64,000 nt of DNA from the human T2T-CHM13v2.0 reference genome, Homo sapiens. The notes below the pieces were generated by a model. The model worked only from the letters and a program-made list of their open reading frames with translations. It was not told where the DNA came from and did not search any database. The DNA is taken from assembly GCF_009914755.1 (NCBI RefSeq), contig NC_060936.1, one strand, 5' to 3'. A program made the translations under genes and the position numbers. This document shows positions 50,111 through 56,532 of the stretch, piece by piece (the stretch's first letter is position 1; every line of letters starts with the position of its first letter).

Positions 50111-50246
50111 CCCACGTTCGGCCACCTGACCTTCCGAGCTGGCGGGGCTGAGGCTGGAGTCCTCCCAGGAGCCACAGGGGAATGAAATTTGCAGACTTCC
50201 GGGGCGCCTGGCCCTGGGCGTTGGGCGAGCCCGGGGATGGTCGGAA

Positions 50247-50282
50247 GGGCTGGGGGTGGGGGTGGGGGGGCGTGGGGGGGGG
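50247..50282 (+). other. G-quadruplex-forming tract in the retrocopy 5' leader
   Basis: GGG-ct-GGGGG-t-GGGGG-t-GGGGGGG-cgt-GGGGGGGGG: five G runs with 1-3 nt loops. Confidence 0.7.
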
Positions 50283-50882
50283 CGGCAGGAGGAGCCCGAA
50301 CGAAGCCTTTGCGATTACAGTCATGGCCACCCAGATGGGGCAGTCTTCTGGAGGAGAAGGGCTGTTTACCGGCAATGGCAACATTGGAATGGCCTTGCCT
50401 AACGGCATGTATGACTTGCATGATCTCTCTAAAGCTGAACTGGCCTCACCTCATCCTGTCTTGCTGGCAAATGCGGCCTTCAGTGGGAAAGTAAATGGCA
50501 GCTGCTGTGATTACCTGGTCGGTGAAGAAAGACAGATGGCAAAATTGATGCCTGTTGGGGATGACAGCTTTTCAGATAGTGAAGAAGGAGAAGGCCTCGA
50601 AGAGTGCTGAAATGAAAGGTGAACCTCATGGGCTGAGACGTTTGGAACTCAGCGTTGTAGAACTTCAGCCTGCATTTGAAGCATCAGCTGCTCCAGAGAT
50701 TTACAGCTCAAATAAAGATCTTCCTCCTGAAACACCTGGAACAGAGGACAGAGGCAAGAACTCGAAGACCAAATCCTTTCGCTGTAAGTCATGCCAATAT
50801 GAAGCAGAATCTGAAGAACAGTTTGTGCATCACATCAGAGTGCACAGTGCCAAGAAATTTTTTGTGGAAGTGCGGAGAGGCA

Positions 50883-51305: not shown

Positions 51306-52497
51306 AAGGAAGCAATAGACAAGGAATCTGGCTCTTCCACTGCAGAAGAGGGAGATTTCTCCAAGGTCTGTATTCGCTGTGACCACTGTGGCTACAATAC
51401 CAATCGATATGGTCCCTATACTGCACACCTGAAACACCACACCAGAGCTGGGGATAATGAGCGAGTCTACAAGTGTATCATCTGCACATACACAACAGTA
51501 AACGATATTTGGAAACTGTAAGCCTGGAATTAGGAGACATAACTATTCCTTCAAGTTTTATAGAATATCACTTGGGAGATTCCAAAACCATAGCTATTAC
51601 ATGGCAAACCTAGGATAAGAGCAGTAGTATGAGTGCTGGCAGACCAGCTGCCACTTTCCTATACAGTGAAAAAGGCCGGTGAAACAAGTACAGGCCAGAT
51701 TTTTAAAAATCATACTTTCTCAAGGATCTCCACAAACTGGAGGGTGTCCTGGCTGTCTGTGTGATAGCCTCTTTCTACAAGTGAGGCCTCAAATGAACTG
51801 CAGCTATCCTGGTGTTCCTGTGGGGGCACTTTGTATGAAAAAAGGGCATGTACTCCAAAACATTTTTGTAGGTTCTTTGGCCAGGCGCCAAACAGTACGA
51901 AAGAGTCCAATGTAGGATTTTTCTTACTGATAGCAGTTATTCATTGCAGTGAAATAAAATATGATCCCAGTAGGGAATCTTGAATTCTGACCTCCCATGT
52001 TCTATTTTGAAATAACCACTTTATGTTTCTTTTTTTTTTTTTATCTGATGATCTCTTTGAGGCCAGCTTCAGATTTTGGTGGTACAACATGAAAGATTAG
52101 GAAAAGCATTAATAATCTGTGGGTGGAAAACTTATTAGAAATCTGAGAGTAAAGTTTGAGTTAAAAGTTGTTTGAACATGGAATTGACTGGGAGGCCAAA
52201 GATTTTTAAAAGCAGAAGATTCTTAAGACCTGAGGAATAAGTTATGTGATAATGGTGTGTGTTTTGTGTGCATGAATGGAAATTGTAAATGTTGAATTCT
52301 AGGCTCCGATAATCACTGTCAACAGAAGATCAAGCTGCAAATATTTATGCTTTAAAACTTAAATTATAAAGCTAGTTAAATCTTTCTAACAACTAGTTTT
52401 AATGTTCATGGGTACATTTTACCTAAGGTACTGTTAACATTGTATAGAGAAAGATTCATCTTAAGCACAGATTGGCTATCAGGAATTAGTTTGGGGA

Positions 52498-54707
52498 TGG
52501 GGTTGTTTGTTTTTTTCTTGTAAATTTGTTTGAGTTCATTGTAGATTCTGGATATTAGCCCTTTGTCAGATGAGTAGGTTGCGAAAATTTTCTCCCATTT
52601 TGTAGGTTGCCTGTTCACTCTGATGGTAGTTTCTTTTGCTGTGCAGAAGCTCTTCAGTTTAATTACATCCCATTTGTCAATTTTGGCTTTTGTTGCCATT
52701 GCTTTTGGTGTTTTAGACATGAAGTCCTTGCCCATGCCTATGTACTGAATGGCAATGCCTAGGTTTTCTTCTAGGGTTTTTATGGTTTTAGGTCTAACGT
52801 TTAAGTCTTTAATCCATCTTGAATTAATTTTTGTATAAGGTGTAAGGAAGGGATCCAGTTTCAGCTTTCTACATATGGCTAGCCAGTTTTCCCAGCACCA
52901 TTTATTAAATAGGGAATCCTTTCCCAATTGCTTCTTTTTCTGAGGTTTGTCAAAGATCAGATAGTTGTAGATATGTGGCGTTATTTCTGAGGGCTCTGTT
53001 CTGTTCCATTGATCTATATCTCTGTTTTGGTACCAGTACCATGCTGTTTTGGTTACTGTAGCCTTGTAGTATAGTTTGAAGTCAGGTAGTGTGATTCCTC
53101 CAGCTTTGTTCTTTTGGCTTAGGATTGACTTGGCAATGCAGGCTCTTTTGGTTCCATATGAACTTTAAAGTAGTTTTTTCCAATTCTGTGAAGAAAGTCA
53201 TTGGTAGCTTGATGGGAATGGCATTGAATCTATAAATTACCTTGGGCAGTATGGCCATTTTCATGATATTGATTCTTCCTACCCGTGAGCATGGAATGTT
53301 CTTCCATTTGTTTGTATCCTCTTTTATTTCATTGAGCAGTGGTTTGTAGTTCTCCTTGAAGAGGTCCTTCACGTCTCTCGTAAGTTGGATTCCTAGGTAT
53401 TTTATTCTCTTTGAAGCAATTGTGAATGGGAGTTCACTCATAATTTGGCTCTCTGTTTGTCTGTTATTGGTGTATAAGAATGCTTGTGATTTTTGTACAT
53501 TGATTTTGTATCCTGAGACTTTGCTGAAGTTGCTTATCAGCTGAAGGAGATTTTGGGCTGAGACAATGGGGTTTTCTAGATATACAATCATGTCATCTGC
53601 AAACAGGGACAATTTGACTTCCTCTTTTCCTAATTGAATACGCTTTATTTCCTTCTCCTGCCTAATGGCCCTGGCCAGACTTCCAACAGTATATTGAATA
53701 GGAGTGGTGAGAGAGGGCATCCCTGTCTTGTGCCAGTTTTCAAAGGGAATGCTTCCAGTTTTTGCCCATTCAGTATGATATTGGCTGTGGGTTTGTCATA
53801 GATAGCTCTTATTATTTTGAGATACGTCCCCATCAAAAAGTGGGCAAAGGACATGAACAGACACTTCTCAAAAGAAGACATTTATGCAGCCAAAAAACAC
53901 ATGAAAAAATGCTCACCATCACTGGCCATCAGAGAAATGCAAATCAAAACTGCAATGAGATACCATCTCACACCAGTTAGAATGGCAATCATTAAAAAGT
54001 CAGGAAACAACAGGTGCTGGAGAGGATGTGGAGAAATAGGAACACTTTTACACTGTTGGTGGGACTGTAAACTAGTTCAACCATTGTGGAAGTCAGTGTG
54101 GCGATTCCTCAGGGATCTAGAACTAGAAATACCATTTGACCCAGCCATCCCATTACTGGGTATATACCCAAAGGACTATAAATCATGCTGCTATAAAGAC
54201 ACATGCACCCGTATGTTTATTGCGGCACTATTCACAATAGCAAAGACTTGGAACCAACCCAAATGTCCAACAATGATAGACTGGATTAAGAAAATGTGGC
54301 ACATATACACCATGGAATACTATGCAGCCATAAAAAATGATGAGTTCATGTCCTTTGTAGGGACATGGATGAAATTGGAAATCATCATTCTCAGTAAACT
54401 ATCGCAAGGACAAAAAAGCAAACACCGCATGTTCTCACTCATAGGTGGGAATTGAACAATGAGAACACATGGACACAGGAAGGGGAACATCACACTCTGG
54501 GGACTGTTGTGGGGTGGGGGGAGGGGGGAGGGATAGCATTAGGAGATATACCTAATGCTAAATGACGAGTTAATGGGTGCAGCACACCAGCATGGCACAT
54601 GGATACATATGTAACTAACCTGCACATTGTGCACATGTACCCTAAAACTTAAAGTGTAATAATAATAAAATAAAAAATAAAATTAATTAATTAATTAATT
54701 TTTAAAA
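52498..54707 (+). mobile_element. 5'-truncated, 5'-inverted L1PA3-like LINE-1 (inverted part 52498-~53827 on minus; direct part ~53828-54707 on plus)
   Basis: ORF2 reverse-transcriptase and C-terminal peptides on opposite strands; 17-bp TSD AGGAATTAGTTTGGGGA at 52481-52497 and 54708-54724; 3'UTR gctaaatgacgagttaatggg (not the L1Hs ACA type). Confidence 0.93.
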
Positions 54708-56532
54708 AGGAATTAGTTTGGGGAAAATGTTTTTTTGTGGATTCTTTCATACTGCAAAAGTAAAACCATTTGCCTTCTGGGGAATTGAGCTAAATTCTCA
54801 TCTAGTCTAAGACTAAAATGCTAAAAACAAAAACATGAAGGAAATTAAAACCCCTTATTATTAAATCGATTTGTAAAAATGTTGTTACTGGAAATTTATT
54901 GGACTTGAGGCCTTCTTCCAGAAAATAAGGACTTGATTGTCAGGGCCTGTATTAGGTTCTGAACCTTAATGCCATGTATTCGTACTTATCAGAAATTATT
55001 TCAGTGAAAAGTACATTAGCAGTATGAACTTCTGATCCAGTTGGAAGTTCTTCCATTTGAAAAATGTGATATTTGCATGGAACTGTTTTCATCTTTTTCT
55101 TTTCTAGTCCCACTCCCCCACACTGGATAGAATTTAAGCTAGAATTTTCCCTTTTGATAAAAGAACAAAAAATGAACATGTTATTTGTAAGTTGATGTGT
55201 AGTATCTAGTGATAAACTTGAAACACTAGAATACATGACAAGCCTAATCTTAGGTAGTCTTATGAAAACGAATCTCTTACCTATCTTTTGAAACTATATT
55301 CACATTGATTTTTAAGATTTTTTAAGTTATATTTTTTCCTTTTTTCTTCAGAGCTGCTTCTTATTTTGGCACCACTTTTTTCTTTTATTGTGTAATTCAC
55401 AAGGGGCTGCATTTTTTTTTTTTTTTTTTTTGATAAGGCTTGTAACTATGGCTGGATGTTTTGCTCTAGTCTTCTAAGAAAGGCCATTTTATTTTTCAGA
55501 GTCACTTATAAAGTCATGTGTAACTAACTTTGTAGACTGTTTTGCATATGACTGCTGCTACAAATTAAAACCCAAATAGACCTCATTGCATGTCACTCTA
55601 TGAATGTTGACAATGAAAGGAATACCTTGCCTGTGGTATACTGTCACTTTTGGACTGAAAAGCTGAGGAAGAAACTTAATTTTCTTTTTTGCATAAGTCA
55701 GAAAAACTTACAGCTGGTGTTCCCAGTTTCCTGGTTGACTCCAGCAGATGAAATGAACAGATAGTGTTAATTCAGACTGAAGAAATTATCTGAATCTTGG
55801 CTTGTGTAGATTTACAATCTACATGCAATATTAACTAAATCAGATAGCTTTTACAGTTTCACATGTGTACATAGGTTCCCTCCCAGTCCCTTCCATACCC
55901 ATTAGTTATTGAACTTTCTAATTCTATTGAAACATTACAACAGTGTTTTGTTGCACCAATTTTATAAACTTATGCCGTGCAATACGTGTTATTTTTCTGA
56001 GGCAGACCAAAGGTAAATTTCTCAAGGTTCTTGCTGCCTTCTTTAGCAGTATTTGAGGGAGGATCTTTTATACATTTGTAACAGATAAAAATGAAGCAGA
56101 TTGCAAATCCTTTTTTAAAATCTTAAACCATGTACCAAGTTTTTGGTCCAAATTGTGTAGGATAAGTTAACCTTAAATTGCATTCTATTAACCAATAAGA
56201 GGGTATTTCCGTAAGCATAGTTATGTTGAAATACAGTTTTAAAAAGCAAAAAAAAAAAAAAAACAAAATAAAAGATAGACCTGCTAAGCTTAGTCAATTA
56301 AAAATTAATGGTGAGACAGAACTACAGGGTAGATTAAAGCTCAGCCTATATGCATCACCATGACTCCGCTTACTACTGATGTCTCCTTCGGCTTGTTGCT
56401 TAATCCTTTCATAAAATGGGATTAGTATTTACTCACCTCCATGAGTTGTGACACACTCTAAATGAGATAATTAATGTAAAGCACTTAGAACAATACTTGG
56501 CACCAGAGAAGCTCTCAAAAAAATATTAGCGG

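What the first reader, a model, noticed from the sequence alone, without database searches (positions are those of the whole stretch)
50111..56271. Sense-oriented REST retrocopy nested in an intron of the neuronal gene SYT1
Seen: a REST-derived, intronless, poly(A)-tailed insert with a 10-bp TSD, on the same strand as SYT1, 8 kb downstream of the last C2A exon. Known: REST represses neuronal genes, including synaptic-vesicle genes, and is low in mature neurons, whereas SYT1 is highly expressed there. Inference: every full SYT1 pre-mRNA carries kilobases of REST-like RNA, so REST-like sequence is transcribed in the cells that silence REST. This could be a primate-specific link (decoy RNA or chimeric transcript) or an inert passenger. 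I cannot tell whether it is already annotated.
Basis: partly seen in the sequence, partly recalled or inferred. Interest (0 to 1): 0.85.

Follow-up and report, generated by a model that had tools for sequence, protein, structure and literature searches.

The report
Dead REST retrocopy inside SYT1 intron
This is a decayed, already annotated processed pseudogene of the REST gene that landed by chance in an intron of SYT1, and nothing in its sequence suggests that it does anything.

Summary
Window 50111-56271 is an L1-type retrocopy of REST mRNA on the SYT1 strand, 7.9 kb after the last C2A exon. It has a perfect 10-bp target-site duplication, a 23-nt A-rich tail at REST's own cleavage site, and intron 1 removed exactly.

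It is not a full copy. It holds exon 1a, the first 259 codons of exon 2 and the distal 2.5 kb of the 3'UTR. About 3.7 kb of mRNA is missing at an imperfect microhomology that is not GT-AG. Only 3,483 of 6,161 bases derive from REST; the remainder is a later Alu, a later 5'-inverted L1 and the tail.

The reading frame breaks after 95 codons. The parental CpG island has decayed, the poly(A) signal is mutated, and coding-derived and UTR-derived parts have diverged about equally.

Polarised substitutions (4.6% on the copy's lineage) suggest an age of roughly 40 Myr, so it is probably limited to anthropoid primates.

REST has at least 13 other retrocopies in this genome. RefSeq already lists this one as LOC100420794, but only for 50199-51709.

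SYT1 pre-mRNA must carry the sequence, which is trivial. I found no sign of a decoy, chimeric or coding role. Interest is low.

The parts
42014..42181 (+). SYT1 exon that ends the C2A domain (context; the host intron starts at 42182)
   Evidence: Pfam C2 profile positions 60-104 of 104, E 3.9e-08. In-frame translation and GT/AG borders. Exon coordinates from the hub table.
50101..50110 (.). Left target-site duplication AAGATAGACC
   Evidence: Read directly. Identical to 56272-56281.
50111..50313 (+). REST exon 1a-derived 5'UTR, G+C-rich and much decayed, with a 79-nt gap relative to the parent
   Evidence: Aligns to C4:60400204-60400302 and 60400382-60400439, and ends at the parental donor GCGCG|GT. 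14 CpGs, o/e 0.58, against 43 CpGs, o/e 0.98, in the parent.
50314..50885 (+). REST exon 2-derived part 1. The REST ATG is at 50323. The frame is open for 95 codons, then a 2-nt deletion and TGA at 50608-50610. First zinc finger.
   Evidence: 87.8% to C4:60402053-60402649. Codon alignment. ORF list. zf-C2H2_REST E 5.8e-16.
50886..51313 (+). Later Alu insertion, sense strand, with an (AAAG)n-expanded tail at 51146-51301 and a diverged target duplication of about 12 bp
   Evidence: Many Alu matches in the parental locus, and a 12-nt overlap of the flanking REST alignments at 60402638-60402649. Borders read. Tandem repeat of 38.8 copies. 15 of 209 non-CpG differences from a local Alu majority consensus.
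51314..51505 (+). REST exon 2-derived part 2 (fingers 2-3) up to parental codon 259
   Evidence: 91.2% to C4:60402638-60402841. Weak zinc-finger Pfam matches below cut-off.
51494..51505 (+). Internal deletion junction: exon 2 (60402841) joined to the distal 3'UTR (60424730) at an imperfect microhomology; not GT-AG
   Evidence: 12-nt overlap of the two alignments. The three sequences are shown side by side.
51506..52497 (+). REST distal 3'UTR-derived part 1
   Evidence: 90.9% to C4:60424730-60425745. The parental stop codon is at 60423561-60423563, so this part starts about 1.17 kb into the 3'UTR.
52498..54708 (.). Later L1 insertion with an inverted 5' half (minus-strand ORF2 piece, then plus-strand 3' end with its A-rich tail). 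The 16-bp target duplication GGAATTAGTTTGGGGA lies at 52482-52497 and 54709-54724.
   Evidence: RVT_1 on minus-strand ORFs 53082-53720 (E 6.7e-11) and 53645-53881 (E 3.2e-07). TSD read and seen as family D2.
54725..56248 (+). REST distal 3'UTR-derived part 2, ending at REST's own cleavage site
   Evidence: 92.2% to C4:60425718-60427254.
56230..56235 (+). Mutated poly(A) signal: AATACA where the parent has AATAAA
   Evidence: The parent and 5 of 6 other REST retrocopies that cover the site keep AATAAA.
56249..56271 (+). Poly(A) tail remnant, A15 C A4 T A2
   Evidence: Read directly. It follows the last base homologous to the parent.
56272..56281 (.). Right target-site duplication AAGATAGACC
   Evidence: Read directly.

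Best explanation
An inert processed pseudogene.

Roughly 40 million years ago (inferred), a REST mRNA that began in exon 1a was reverse-transcribed by the L1 machinery. It was inserted at a TCTT/AT-like nick in the intron between the C2A and C2B exons of SYT1, on the SYT1 strand. This left a 10-bp target-site duplication and a poly(A) tail.

About 3.7 kb of the message is missing. The missing part is the end of exon 2, exon 3, all of the exon 4 coding sequence and the first 1.17 kb of the 3'UTR. It was lost at a short imperfect homology, either by a template jump during reverse transcription or by a later genomic deletion; these data cannot tell which.

The copy has since drifted neutrally. 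It acquired two frameshifts, lost most of its CpGs, lost its canonical poly(A) signal, and was hit by an Alu and later by a 5'-inverted L1.

It is transcribed only as part of the SYT1 intron and removed with it. No function is expected.

What is shown: the anatomy, the decay, and that it is one of many REST retrocopies. What is inferred: the age, the L1 mechanism, and the absence of function.
For: Anatomy and hallmarks of retroposition.

Disablement:
- There are deletions of 3, 2, 15 and 4 nt in the exon 2-derived part.
- The REST frame ends after 95 codons.

Even divergence:
- Exon 2 part: 65 of 765 (8.5%; non-CpG 54 of 725, 7.4%).
- 3'UTR part: 183 of 2502 (7.3%; non-CpG 165 of 2466, 6.7%).
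- The coding-derived part is therefore no better kept than the UTR-derived part.

Polarisation by 7 other REST retrocopies:
- 100 changes fall on this copy's lineage and 53 on the parent's, in 2163 columns; 11 are ambiguous and 23 have no outgroup.
- The result is the same without L007 (101 vs 53) and without L007 and L009 (99 vs 53).
- The copy evolves about twice as fast as the constrained parental UTR.

dN/dS against the parent is 0.44 (39.0 nonsynonymous and 23.0 synonymous changes in 249 gap-free codons of 259). That is near what one neutral lineage plus one constrained lineage gives.

The stretch that I recall as the Sin3-binding helix carries 7 changes in 15 residues, including a new proline (output; the role of that stretch is recalled).

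CpG island decay: 10 of 43 parental CpGs are kept, and o/e is 0.58 against 0.98.

The poly(A) signal is mutated on this lineage.

Two later repeats are tolerated inside it.

No Rfam family reaches the gathering score in 49000-57500.

Not special among REST copies or among nested retrocopies:
- At least 13 other loci carry 5'-truncated REST 3'UTR copies ending at the same cleavage site.
- A published survey counts 2139 human retrocopies overlapping genes, 1301 of them antisense, so 838 are in sense (passage of PMC7290577).

RefSeq calls it a pseudogene and lists no SYT1 exon inside it (hub table).
Against: No expression, conservation or cross-species data could be examined here, so lack of function is inferred from decay and not shown.

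Four of the five miRNA seed matches that I tested and that occur in the parental distal UTR are kept in the copy. About 3 of 5 would be expected from 7.3% divergence. This is not significant, and the seeds were recalled.

dN/dS of 0.44 is somewhat below my rough neutral expectation of 0.55-0.6. There is no stop codon if the parental frame is followed across the frameshifts. An early period of weak constraint therefore cannot be excluded.

Loss of AATAAA in this copy alone among the younger copies could reflect selection against premature SYT1 termination. That would be an effect on the host, not a function.

The Alu inside shows 7.2% non-CpG difference (15 of 209) from a mixed local consensus. 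That is more than the 4.3% non-CpG on the copy's lineage (92 of 2163). The age may therefore be underestimated, or the mixed consensus may inflate the Alu figure.
Confidence: 0.9

Rival explanations
1. The insert perturbs or diversifies SYT1 transcripts. Because it lies in sense, cryptic splice sites or poly(A) signals (REST's own, or those of the L1 tail) would give truncated or chimeric SYT1-REST RNAs ending after the C2A exons.
For: The orientation is sense (hub table). Sense AATAAA hexamers lie at 50711, 51166, 51953, 54664, 54669 and 54676. Same-orientation retrocopies are known to donate exons or induce premature termination in host genes (passages of PMC2584115, and of PMC7290577 citing Kaer et al. 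2011).
Against: The retrocopy's own signal is now AATACA. None of the 14 RefSeq SYT1 transcripts has an exon or an end in the interval (hub table). The insert has been kept for tens of millions of years in a gene under strong constraint, which argues that it is harmless to processing. No RNA data were available to me.
Confidence: 0.05
2. Neuron-specific decoy: the 2.5 kb of REST 3'UTR carried in SYT1 pre-mRNA (or in a stable excised fragment) binds miRNAs or RNA-binding proteins that normally act on REST mRNA. This would couple SYT1 transcription to REST control in anthropoid primates.
For: Four of five seed matches present in the parental distal UTR are retained, among them one for miR-9 at 56006 (seeds recalled). 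The copy is 92% identical to the parental UTR.
Against: Retention is not above chance: 4 of 5 against about 3 expected. The UTR-derived part evolves twice as fast as the parental UTR, so what constrains the parent does not constrain the copy. An L1 of 2.2 kb sits in the middle of it. From established knowledge, intronic RNA is nuclear and short-lived, while miRNA action is mostly cytoplasmic. Thirteen other REST UTR copies exist.
Confidence: 0.03
3. The 95-codon remnant of the REST N-terminus (or the 142-codon ORF from the upstream ATG at 50182) is translated and acts as a small competitor for REST's N-terminal corepressor.
For: An ORF in the REST frame is open from 50323 to 50607. It covers the region that in REST contains the N-terminal repression domain (recalled).
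Against: There is no promoter evidence, and the CpG island is decayed. The ORF lies deep in an intron. Seven of 15 residues of the recalled corepressor-binding stretch are changed, with a proline introduced. There is no Pfam or PDB match for the peptide.
Confidence: 0.01
4. A sub-question of origin: the missing 3.7 kb reflects an alternatively spliced REST transcript (partial skipping of exons 2 and 4) and not a deletion.
For: A published survey reports numerous alternative 5'/3' splice sites inside exons 2 and 4 and many variants with partial skipping of them (sections of PMC3628349).
Against: No placement of the junction gives both GT at the start and AG at the end of the missing stretch. 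Instead the two parental sequences share an imperfect homology of about 15 nt across the join. I could not see the paper's figure with the exact sites.
Confidence: 0.1

Closest known systems
Ordinary L1-mediated processed pseudogenes nested in introns (for example those catalogued in RetrogeneDB and analysed in PMC7290577)
   Same: It is derived from spliced mRNA and has a poly(A) tail at the parental cleavage site. It has a target-site duplication and lies on another chromosome than the parent. It carries disabling mutations and sits inside a host gene intron. By that paper's passage, 838 of 2139 gene-overlapping retrocopies are in sense orientation.
   Different: There is nothing essential. 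The particulars are the internal 3.7-kb loss at a microhomology and the pairing of parent (a repressor of neuronal genes) with host (a neuronal gene). With at least 14 REST retrocopies in the genome, that pairing needs no special explanation.
PPP1R26P1 retrocopy in intron 2 of RB1 (PMC4122923, abstract and passages)
   Same: It is a primate-specific retrocopy in an intron of an important host gene, and it brought along CpG-rich sequence from its parent.
   Different: In RB1 the retrocopy-derived CpG island is kept, is differentially methylated and causes imprinting. Here the island has decayed: 10 of 43 CpGs remain and o/e is 0.58. SYT1 and REST are not mentioned in that paper's main text.
Pseudogene competing-RNA decoys such as PTENP1 (recalled; no paper read here)
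   Same: The copy keeps a long stretch of the parent's 3'UTR with several seed matches.
   Different: PTENP1 is an independently transcribed, polyadenylated cytoplasmic RNA. This copy has no sign of its own promoter, has a mutated poly(A) signal, is split by an L1 and exists only as intronic RNA.
Type Ia 'same orientation' exon acquisition from retrocopies (PMC2584115, passages)
   Same: It is a sense-oriented retrocopy inside a multi-exon host gene.
   Different: Those cases are defined by spliced mRNAs or ESTs that join host exons to the retrocopy. None is annotated here (hub table), and SYT1 does not occur in that paper's main text.

Membership tests
Processed pseudogene (L1-mediated retrocopy) | Collinear homology to the mature mRNA of a parent gene at another locus | tested here: met
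   Blocks to REST exon 1a, exon 2 and 3'UTR on C4, in order and on one strand. Pfam zf-C2H2_REST, E 5.8e-16.
Processed pseudogene (L1-mediated retrocopy) | Introns removed exactly at the parental splice sites | tested here: met
   Intron 1 (60400464-60402053, GT...AG) is absent, with the join at 50313|50314. Introns 2 and 3 lie within the larger missing stretch, so they are uninformative.
Processed pseudogene (L1-mediated retrocopy) | Poly(A) tail starting at the parental cleavage site | tested here: met
   Homology ends at 56248, which corresponds to 60427254, 13 nt after the parental AATAAA. A 23-nt A-rich tail follows.
Processed pseudogene (L1-mediated retrocopy) | Target-site duplication flanking the insert, at an L1 endonuclease-like site | tested here: met
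   There is a 10 of 10 duplication at 50101-50110 and 56272-56281. The bottom-strand nick context reads TCTT/AT against the recalled consensus TTTT/AA (read; the consensus is recalled).
Processed pseudogene (L1-mediated retrocopy) | Disabled coding capacity | tested here: met
   There are frameshifts of 2 and 4 nt, a stop after 95 codons, and loss of about 840 of REST's codons.
Functional retrogene or expressed retrocopy | Intact or selectively maintained ORF | tested here: not met
   The frame is broken. dN/dS of 0.44 against the parent is compatible with neutral drift of the copy.
Functional retrogene or expressed retrocopy | Own promoter (for example a maintained CpG island) | tested here: not met
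   No 200-nt window reaches CpG o/e 0.6 (maximum 0.59). Ten of 43 parental CpGs are kept. RefSeq lists no functional element (hub table).
Functional retrogene or expressed retrocopy | Transcripts distinct from host intron background | not testable with these tools
   No RNA data are available. The supplement of PMC7290577, which may list expression per retrocopy, could not be read.
Competing-RNA (miRNA decoy) pseudogene | Shared miRNA sites maintained above the neutral expectation | tested here: inconclusive
   Nine recalled seeds were tested. Five occur in the parental distal UTR and four of those are kept. About 3 would be expected by chance.
Competing-RNA (miRNA decoy) pseudogene | Stable, exported, polyadenylated transcript | not testable with these tools
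   Indirectly unfavourable: the poly(A) signal is mutated to AATACA and the location is intronic.

The most novel reading that the evidence does not exclude
In anthropoid primates, SYT1 transcription in neurons produces 3.5 kb of REST-like sense RNA. This includes 2.5 kb of REST 3'UTR with retained seed matches (among them one for miR-9). A stable fragment or a rare SYT1-REST chimeric RNA from it would modulate REST-directed miRNA or RNA-binding-protein activity. That would add a lineage-specific feedback between a synaptic gene and the repressor of neuronal genes.
Probability: 0.03. Interest if true: 0.55.

Novelty: already known. Interest (0 to 1): 0.1.

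Why it matters
It matters little. The locus is an annotated pseudogene of an ordinary kind.

What this check adds is descriptive:
- The true extent is 6.16 kb, against the 1.5 kb in RefSeq.
- There is an unusual internal loss of 3.7 kb at a microhomology.
- It is the only REST retrocopy in this genome that keeps any coding sequence.
- It is one of at least 14 REST retrocopies.

One practical point follows. The copy is 88-92% identical to REST over 3.5 kb and is transcribed within an abundant neuronal pre-mRNA. 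Short reads, probes or primers for the REST 5' exons or distal 3'UTR could therefore pick up SYT1 intronic RNA in total-RNA brain data. That is worth knowing when REST levels in neurons are measured.

Tried and rejected
- Canonical splicing as the cause of the internal gap. I tried every placement of the join across the shared stretch, and none gives GT...AG.
- The missing REST parts sitting elsewhere nearby. There is no hit in the 64-kb window, and no second copy anywhere in the genome.
- A structured RNA family in or around the insert. There was no Rfam match at gathering scores in 49000-57500.
- A solved-structure relative of the 95-residue peptide. None was found at E up to 1.
- A REST binding site (RE1) in the window, which would have made a REST-SYT1 link more pointed. 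There were 0 matches to a recalled 15-nt degenerate core with up to 2 mismatches, against 0.52 expected by chance. The window covers only 64 kb of a gene of about 588 kb.
- Literature. Three searches for the locus name and for phrases meaning a REST pseudogene, retrocopy or retrogene found 0 papers.
- The supplement of PMC7290577 could not be read.
- Dating the Alu against a majority consensus of 19 other Alus from the window and the parental locus gave 7.2% non-CpG. The consensus mixes subfamilies, so I use this only as a sign that the Alu is old, not as a date.
- I did not try to date or classify the L1.

Full report
**What is there**

Window 50111-56271 is bounded by a perfect 10-bp direct repeat, AAGATAGACC, at 50101-50110 and 56272-56281.

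A search of the window's own assembly places the parent on contig C4, which is REST. I fetched 30 kb of it and aligned it. The insert maps as follows:

| Window | Content |
|---|---|
| 50111-50313 | REST exon 1a (parental 60400204-60400463, with a 79-nt gap at 60400303-60400381) |
| 50314-50885 and 51314-51505 | Exon 2 from its first base to parental codon 259 (60402054-60402841; ATG at 50323) |
| 51506-52497 and 54725-56248 | Distal 3'UTR (60424742-60427254) |
| 56249-56271 | A15 C A4 T A2 tail |

The exon 1a / exon 2 join coincides with the parental GT...AG intron borders. The last homologous base lies 13 nt after the parental AATAAA.

Pfam recognises the REST-specific first finger, zf-C2H2_REST, with E 5.8e-16.

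The bottom-strand nick context, TCTT/AT, resembles the L1 endonuclease consensus. The consensus is recalled.

Every hallmark of an L1-mediated processed copy is therefore present.

**Host context**

The SYT1 exons at 38700-38867 and 42014-42181 translate in frame with good splice borders. They match Pfam C2 profile positions 4-57 and 60-104 of 104.

The exon ending at 42181 therefore closes the first C2 domain. The insert starts 7,929 nt into the following intron, on the SYT1 strand.

(a) The copy is far from complete.
- Exon 2 is joined at parental 60402841 to parental 60424730. The second point lies 1.17 kb beyond the stop codon at 60423561-60423563.
- The missing part is about 3.7 kb of mRNA. 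It comprises the last 118 nt of exon 2 (my count from the print), exon 3 (84 bp according to PMC3628349) and about 3.48 kb of exon 4.
- The two parental sequences share an imperfect homology of about 15 nt across the join. No placement of the join gives GT...AG.
- I therefore read it as a microhomology-mediated loss, either a template jump of the reverse transcriptase or a later genomic deletion.
- REST does have many reported variants with partial skipping of exons 2 and 4 (PMC3628349, passages and section 16). I could not see the exact sites, so a non-canonical transcript remains a minor alternative.
- The missing stretch is nowhere else in the window, and it has no second copy in the genome.

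(b) Only 3,483 of the 6,161 bases derive from REST.
- An Alu lies at 50886-51313, in sense. Its tail has expanded to 38.8 AAAG units, and its target duplication of about 12 bp has diverged.
- An L1 lies at 52498-54708. Its 5' half is inverted: RVT_1 matches 2 of the 4 ORFs tested, both on the minus strand. The L1 3' end and its A-rich tail lie on the plus strand. It has a perfect 16-bp target duplication.

**State of decay**

- The exon 2-derived part carries deletions of 3, 2, 15 and 4 nt. The REST frame stops after 95 codons.
- Divergence from the parent is 8.5% in the exon 2 part (65 of 765) and 7.3% in the UTR part (183 of 2502). Outside CpGs the figures are 7.4% and 6.7%. The coding-derived part is not better preserved.
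- dN/dS against the parent is 0.44, from 39.0 nonsynonymous and 23.0 synonymous differences in 249 of 259 codons. This is roughly what a neutral copy plus a constrained parent gives, though slightly lower than my rough expectation.
- The exon 1a-derived piece keeps 10 of 43 parental CpGs. Its CpG o/e is 0.58 against 0.98 in the parent. It has behaved as methylated DNA, not as a promoter island.
- The poly(A) signal is AATACA at 56230-56235. The parent and 5 of 6 other retrocopies covering the site have AATAAA. A single change in six bases has a chance of roughly one in four at this divergence. It may be chance, or mild selection against a sense terminator in a busy intron.
- No Rfam family is found.
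- The 95-residue peptide has no Pfam or PDB match.

**Age**

REST has left many 5'-truncated copies of its distal 3'UTR. In one search, 13 loci other than the parent and this copy have matches that end within about 20 nt of the REST cleavage site. Several further fragments exist.

Seven of these served as outgroups:

| Outgroups used | Columns | Changes on this copy's lineage | Changes on the parent's lineage | Ambiguous |
|---|---|---|---|---|
| All seven | 2163 | 100 | 53 | 11 (23 more had no outgroup) |
| Without L007 | 2163 | 101 | 53 | 10 |
| Without L007 and L009 | 2161 | 99 | 53 | 12 |

This gives 4.6% on the copy's lineage and 2.45% on the parent's.

I recall human-lineage neutral divergence as about 3% since the split from Old World monkeys and about 5% since the split from New World monkeys. 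Against these figures, the copy is about 40 Myr old (say 30-55). This is an inference, not a species comparison.

The Alu inside is among the more diverged of 20 local Alus: 15 of 209 non-CpG differences from a mixed consensus. That fits an early secondary hit, but it is a little higher than expected, so the age may be underestimated.

Identity to the parent ranks this copy with L007 as the youngest of the REST retrocopies compared. It is the only one with any 5'UTR or coding sequence.

**Interpretation**

SYT1 pre-mRNA necessarily contains the insert, which is all that the sense orientation guarantees.

Sense-nested retrocopies are common. A survey gives 2139 retrocopies overlapping genes, of which 1301 are antisense (PMC7290577, passage).

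With at least 14 REST retrocopies, and long neuronal genes offering large intronic targets, one in a neuronal intron needs no explanation.

Against a decoy role:
- The UTR-derived part evolves twice as fast as the parental UTR.
- It is split by an L1.
- Seed retention (4 of the 5 sites present in the parent, out of 9 recalled seeds tested) is not above chance.

Against a chimeric-transcript role:
- The hub's RefSeq table lists no SYT1 exon in the interval.
- The retrocopy's terminator is weakened.

Against a peptide: the recalled corepressor-binding stretch has 7 of 15 residues changed, including a new proline.

None of these rivals is excluded by experiment. Together I give them about 10%.

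**Comparison with what is known**

RefSeq already annotates LOC100420794, 'RE1 silencing transcription factor pseudogene', at 50199-51709 (hub table). That span covers only the 5' quarter and misses the 3'UTR-derived part.

No paper in the searched library names the locus or a REST pseudogene. SYT1 is absent from the main texts of the three retrocopy papers I queried. The supplement of PMC7290577, which may list it, could not be read.

The nearest functional precedent is the PPP1R26P1 retrocopy in RB1 intron 2. It depends on a maintained, differentially methylated CpG island (PMC4122923), which this copy lacks.

**Verdict**

The feature is already known and is an ordinary processed pseudogene. 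Interest is low.

One practical note: in total-RNA data from neurons, reads from this intronic copy could be mistaken for REST 5' or distal 3'UTR signal.

Noticed in passing
G000 loci L007-L012, L018, L019 and further places listed: REST has been a prolific source of retrocopies. Thirteen other loci carry 5'-truncated copies of its distal 3'UTR that end at the same cleavage site, with 69-91% identity. None contains coding sequence.
   Followed up: partly
G000:C4:60424742-60427254 (parental REST distal 3'UTR): Since the birth of the SYT1 copy, the parental distal 3'UTR has changed at about half the rate of the copy (53 against 100 polarised changes in 2163 columns). This indicates purifying selection on the REST 3'UTR.
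   Followed up: partly
window 51146-51301: A 156-bp AAAG-rich microsatellite (38.8 units, 88% matches) has grown from the tail of the Alu inside the retrocopy. It is a likely length-polymorphic site.
   Followed up: no
window 52498-54708: An L1 insertion has an inverted 5' half: reverse-transcriptase ORF pieces lie on the minus strand and the L1 3' end lies on the plus strand. It has a perfect 16-bp target duplication. This is the pattern expected from twin priming. Subfamily and age were not determined.
   Followed up: partly
window 50199-51709 versus 50111-56271: The RefSeq pseudogene span (hub table) covers only the 5'UTR- and exon 2-derived part and about 200 nt beyond the internal junction. 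The 3'UTR-derived 2.5 kb, the tail and the duplications are not included.
   Followed up: yes
window 50247-50290: A run of G tracts (GGGGGTGGGGGTGGGGGGGCGTGGGGGGGGG) lies on the sense strand, where the parental exon 1a has a more mixed G+C-rich sequence. It is prone to G-quadruplex formation, and alignment to the parent is poor here.
   Followed up: no
window 1-64000: There is no match to a recalled degenerate core of the REST binding site (RE1) with up to 2 mismatches; 0.52 would be expected by chance. This 64-kb part of SYT1 shows no obvious RE1.
   Followed up: partly
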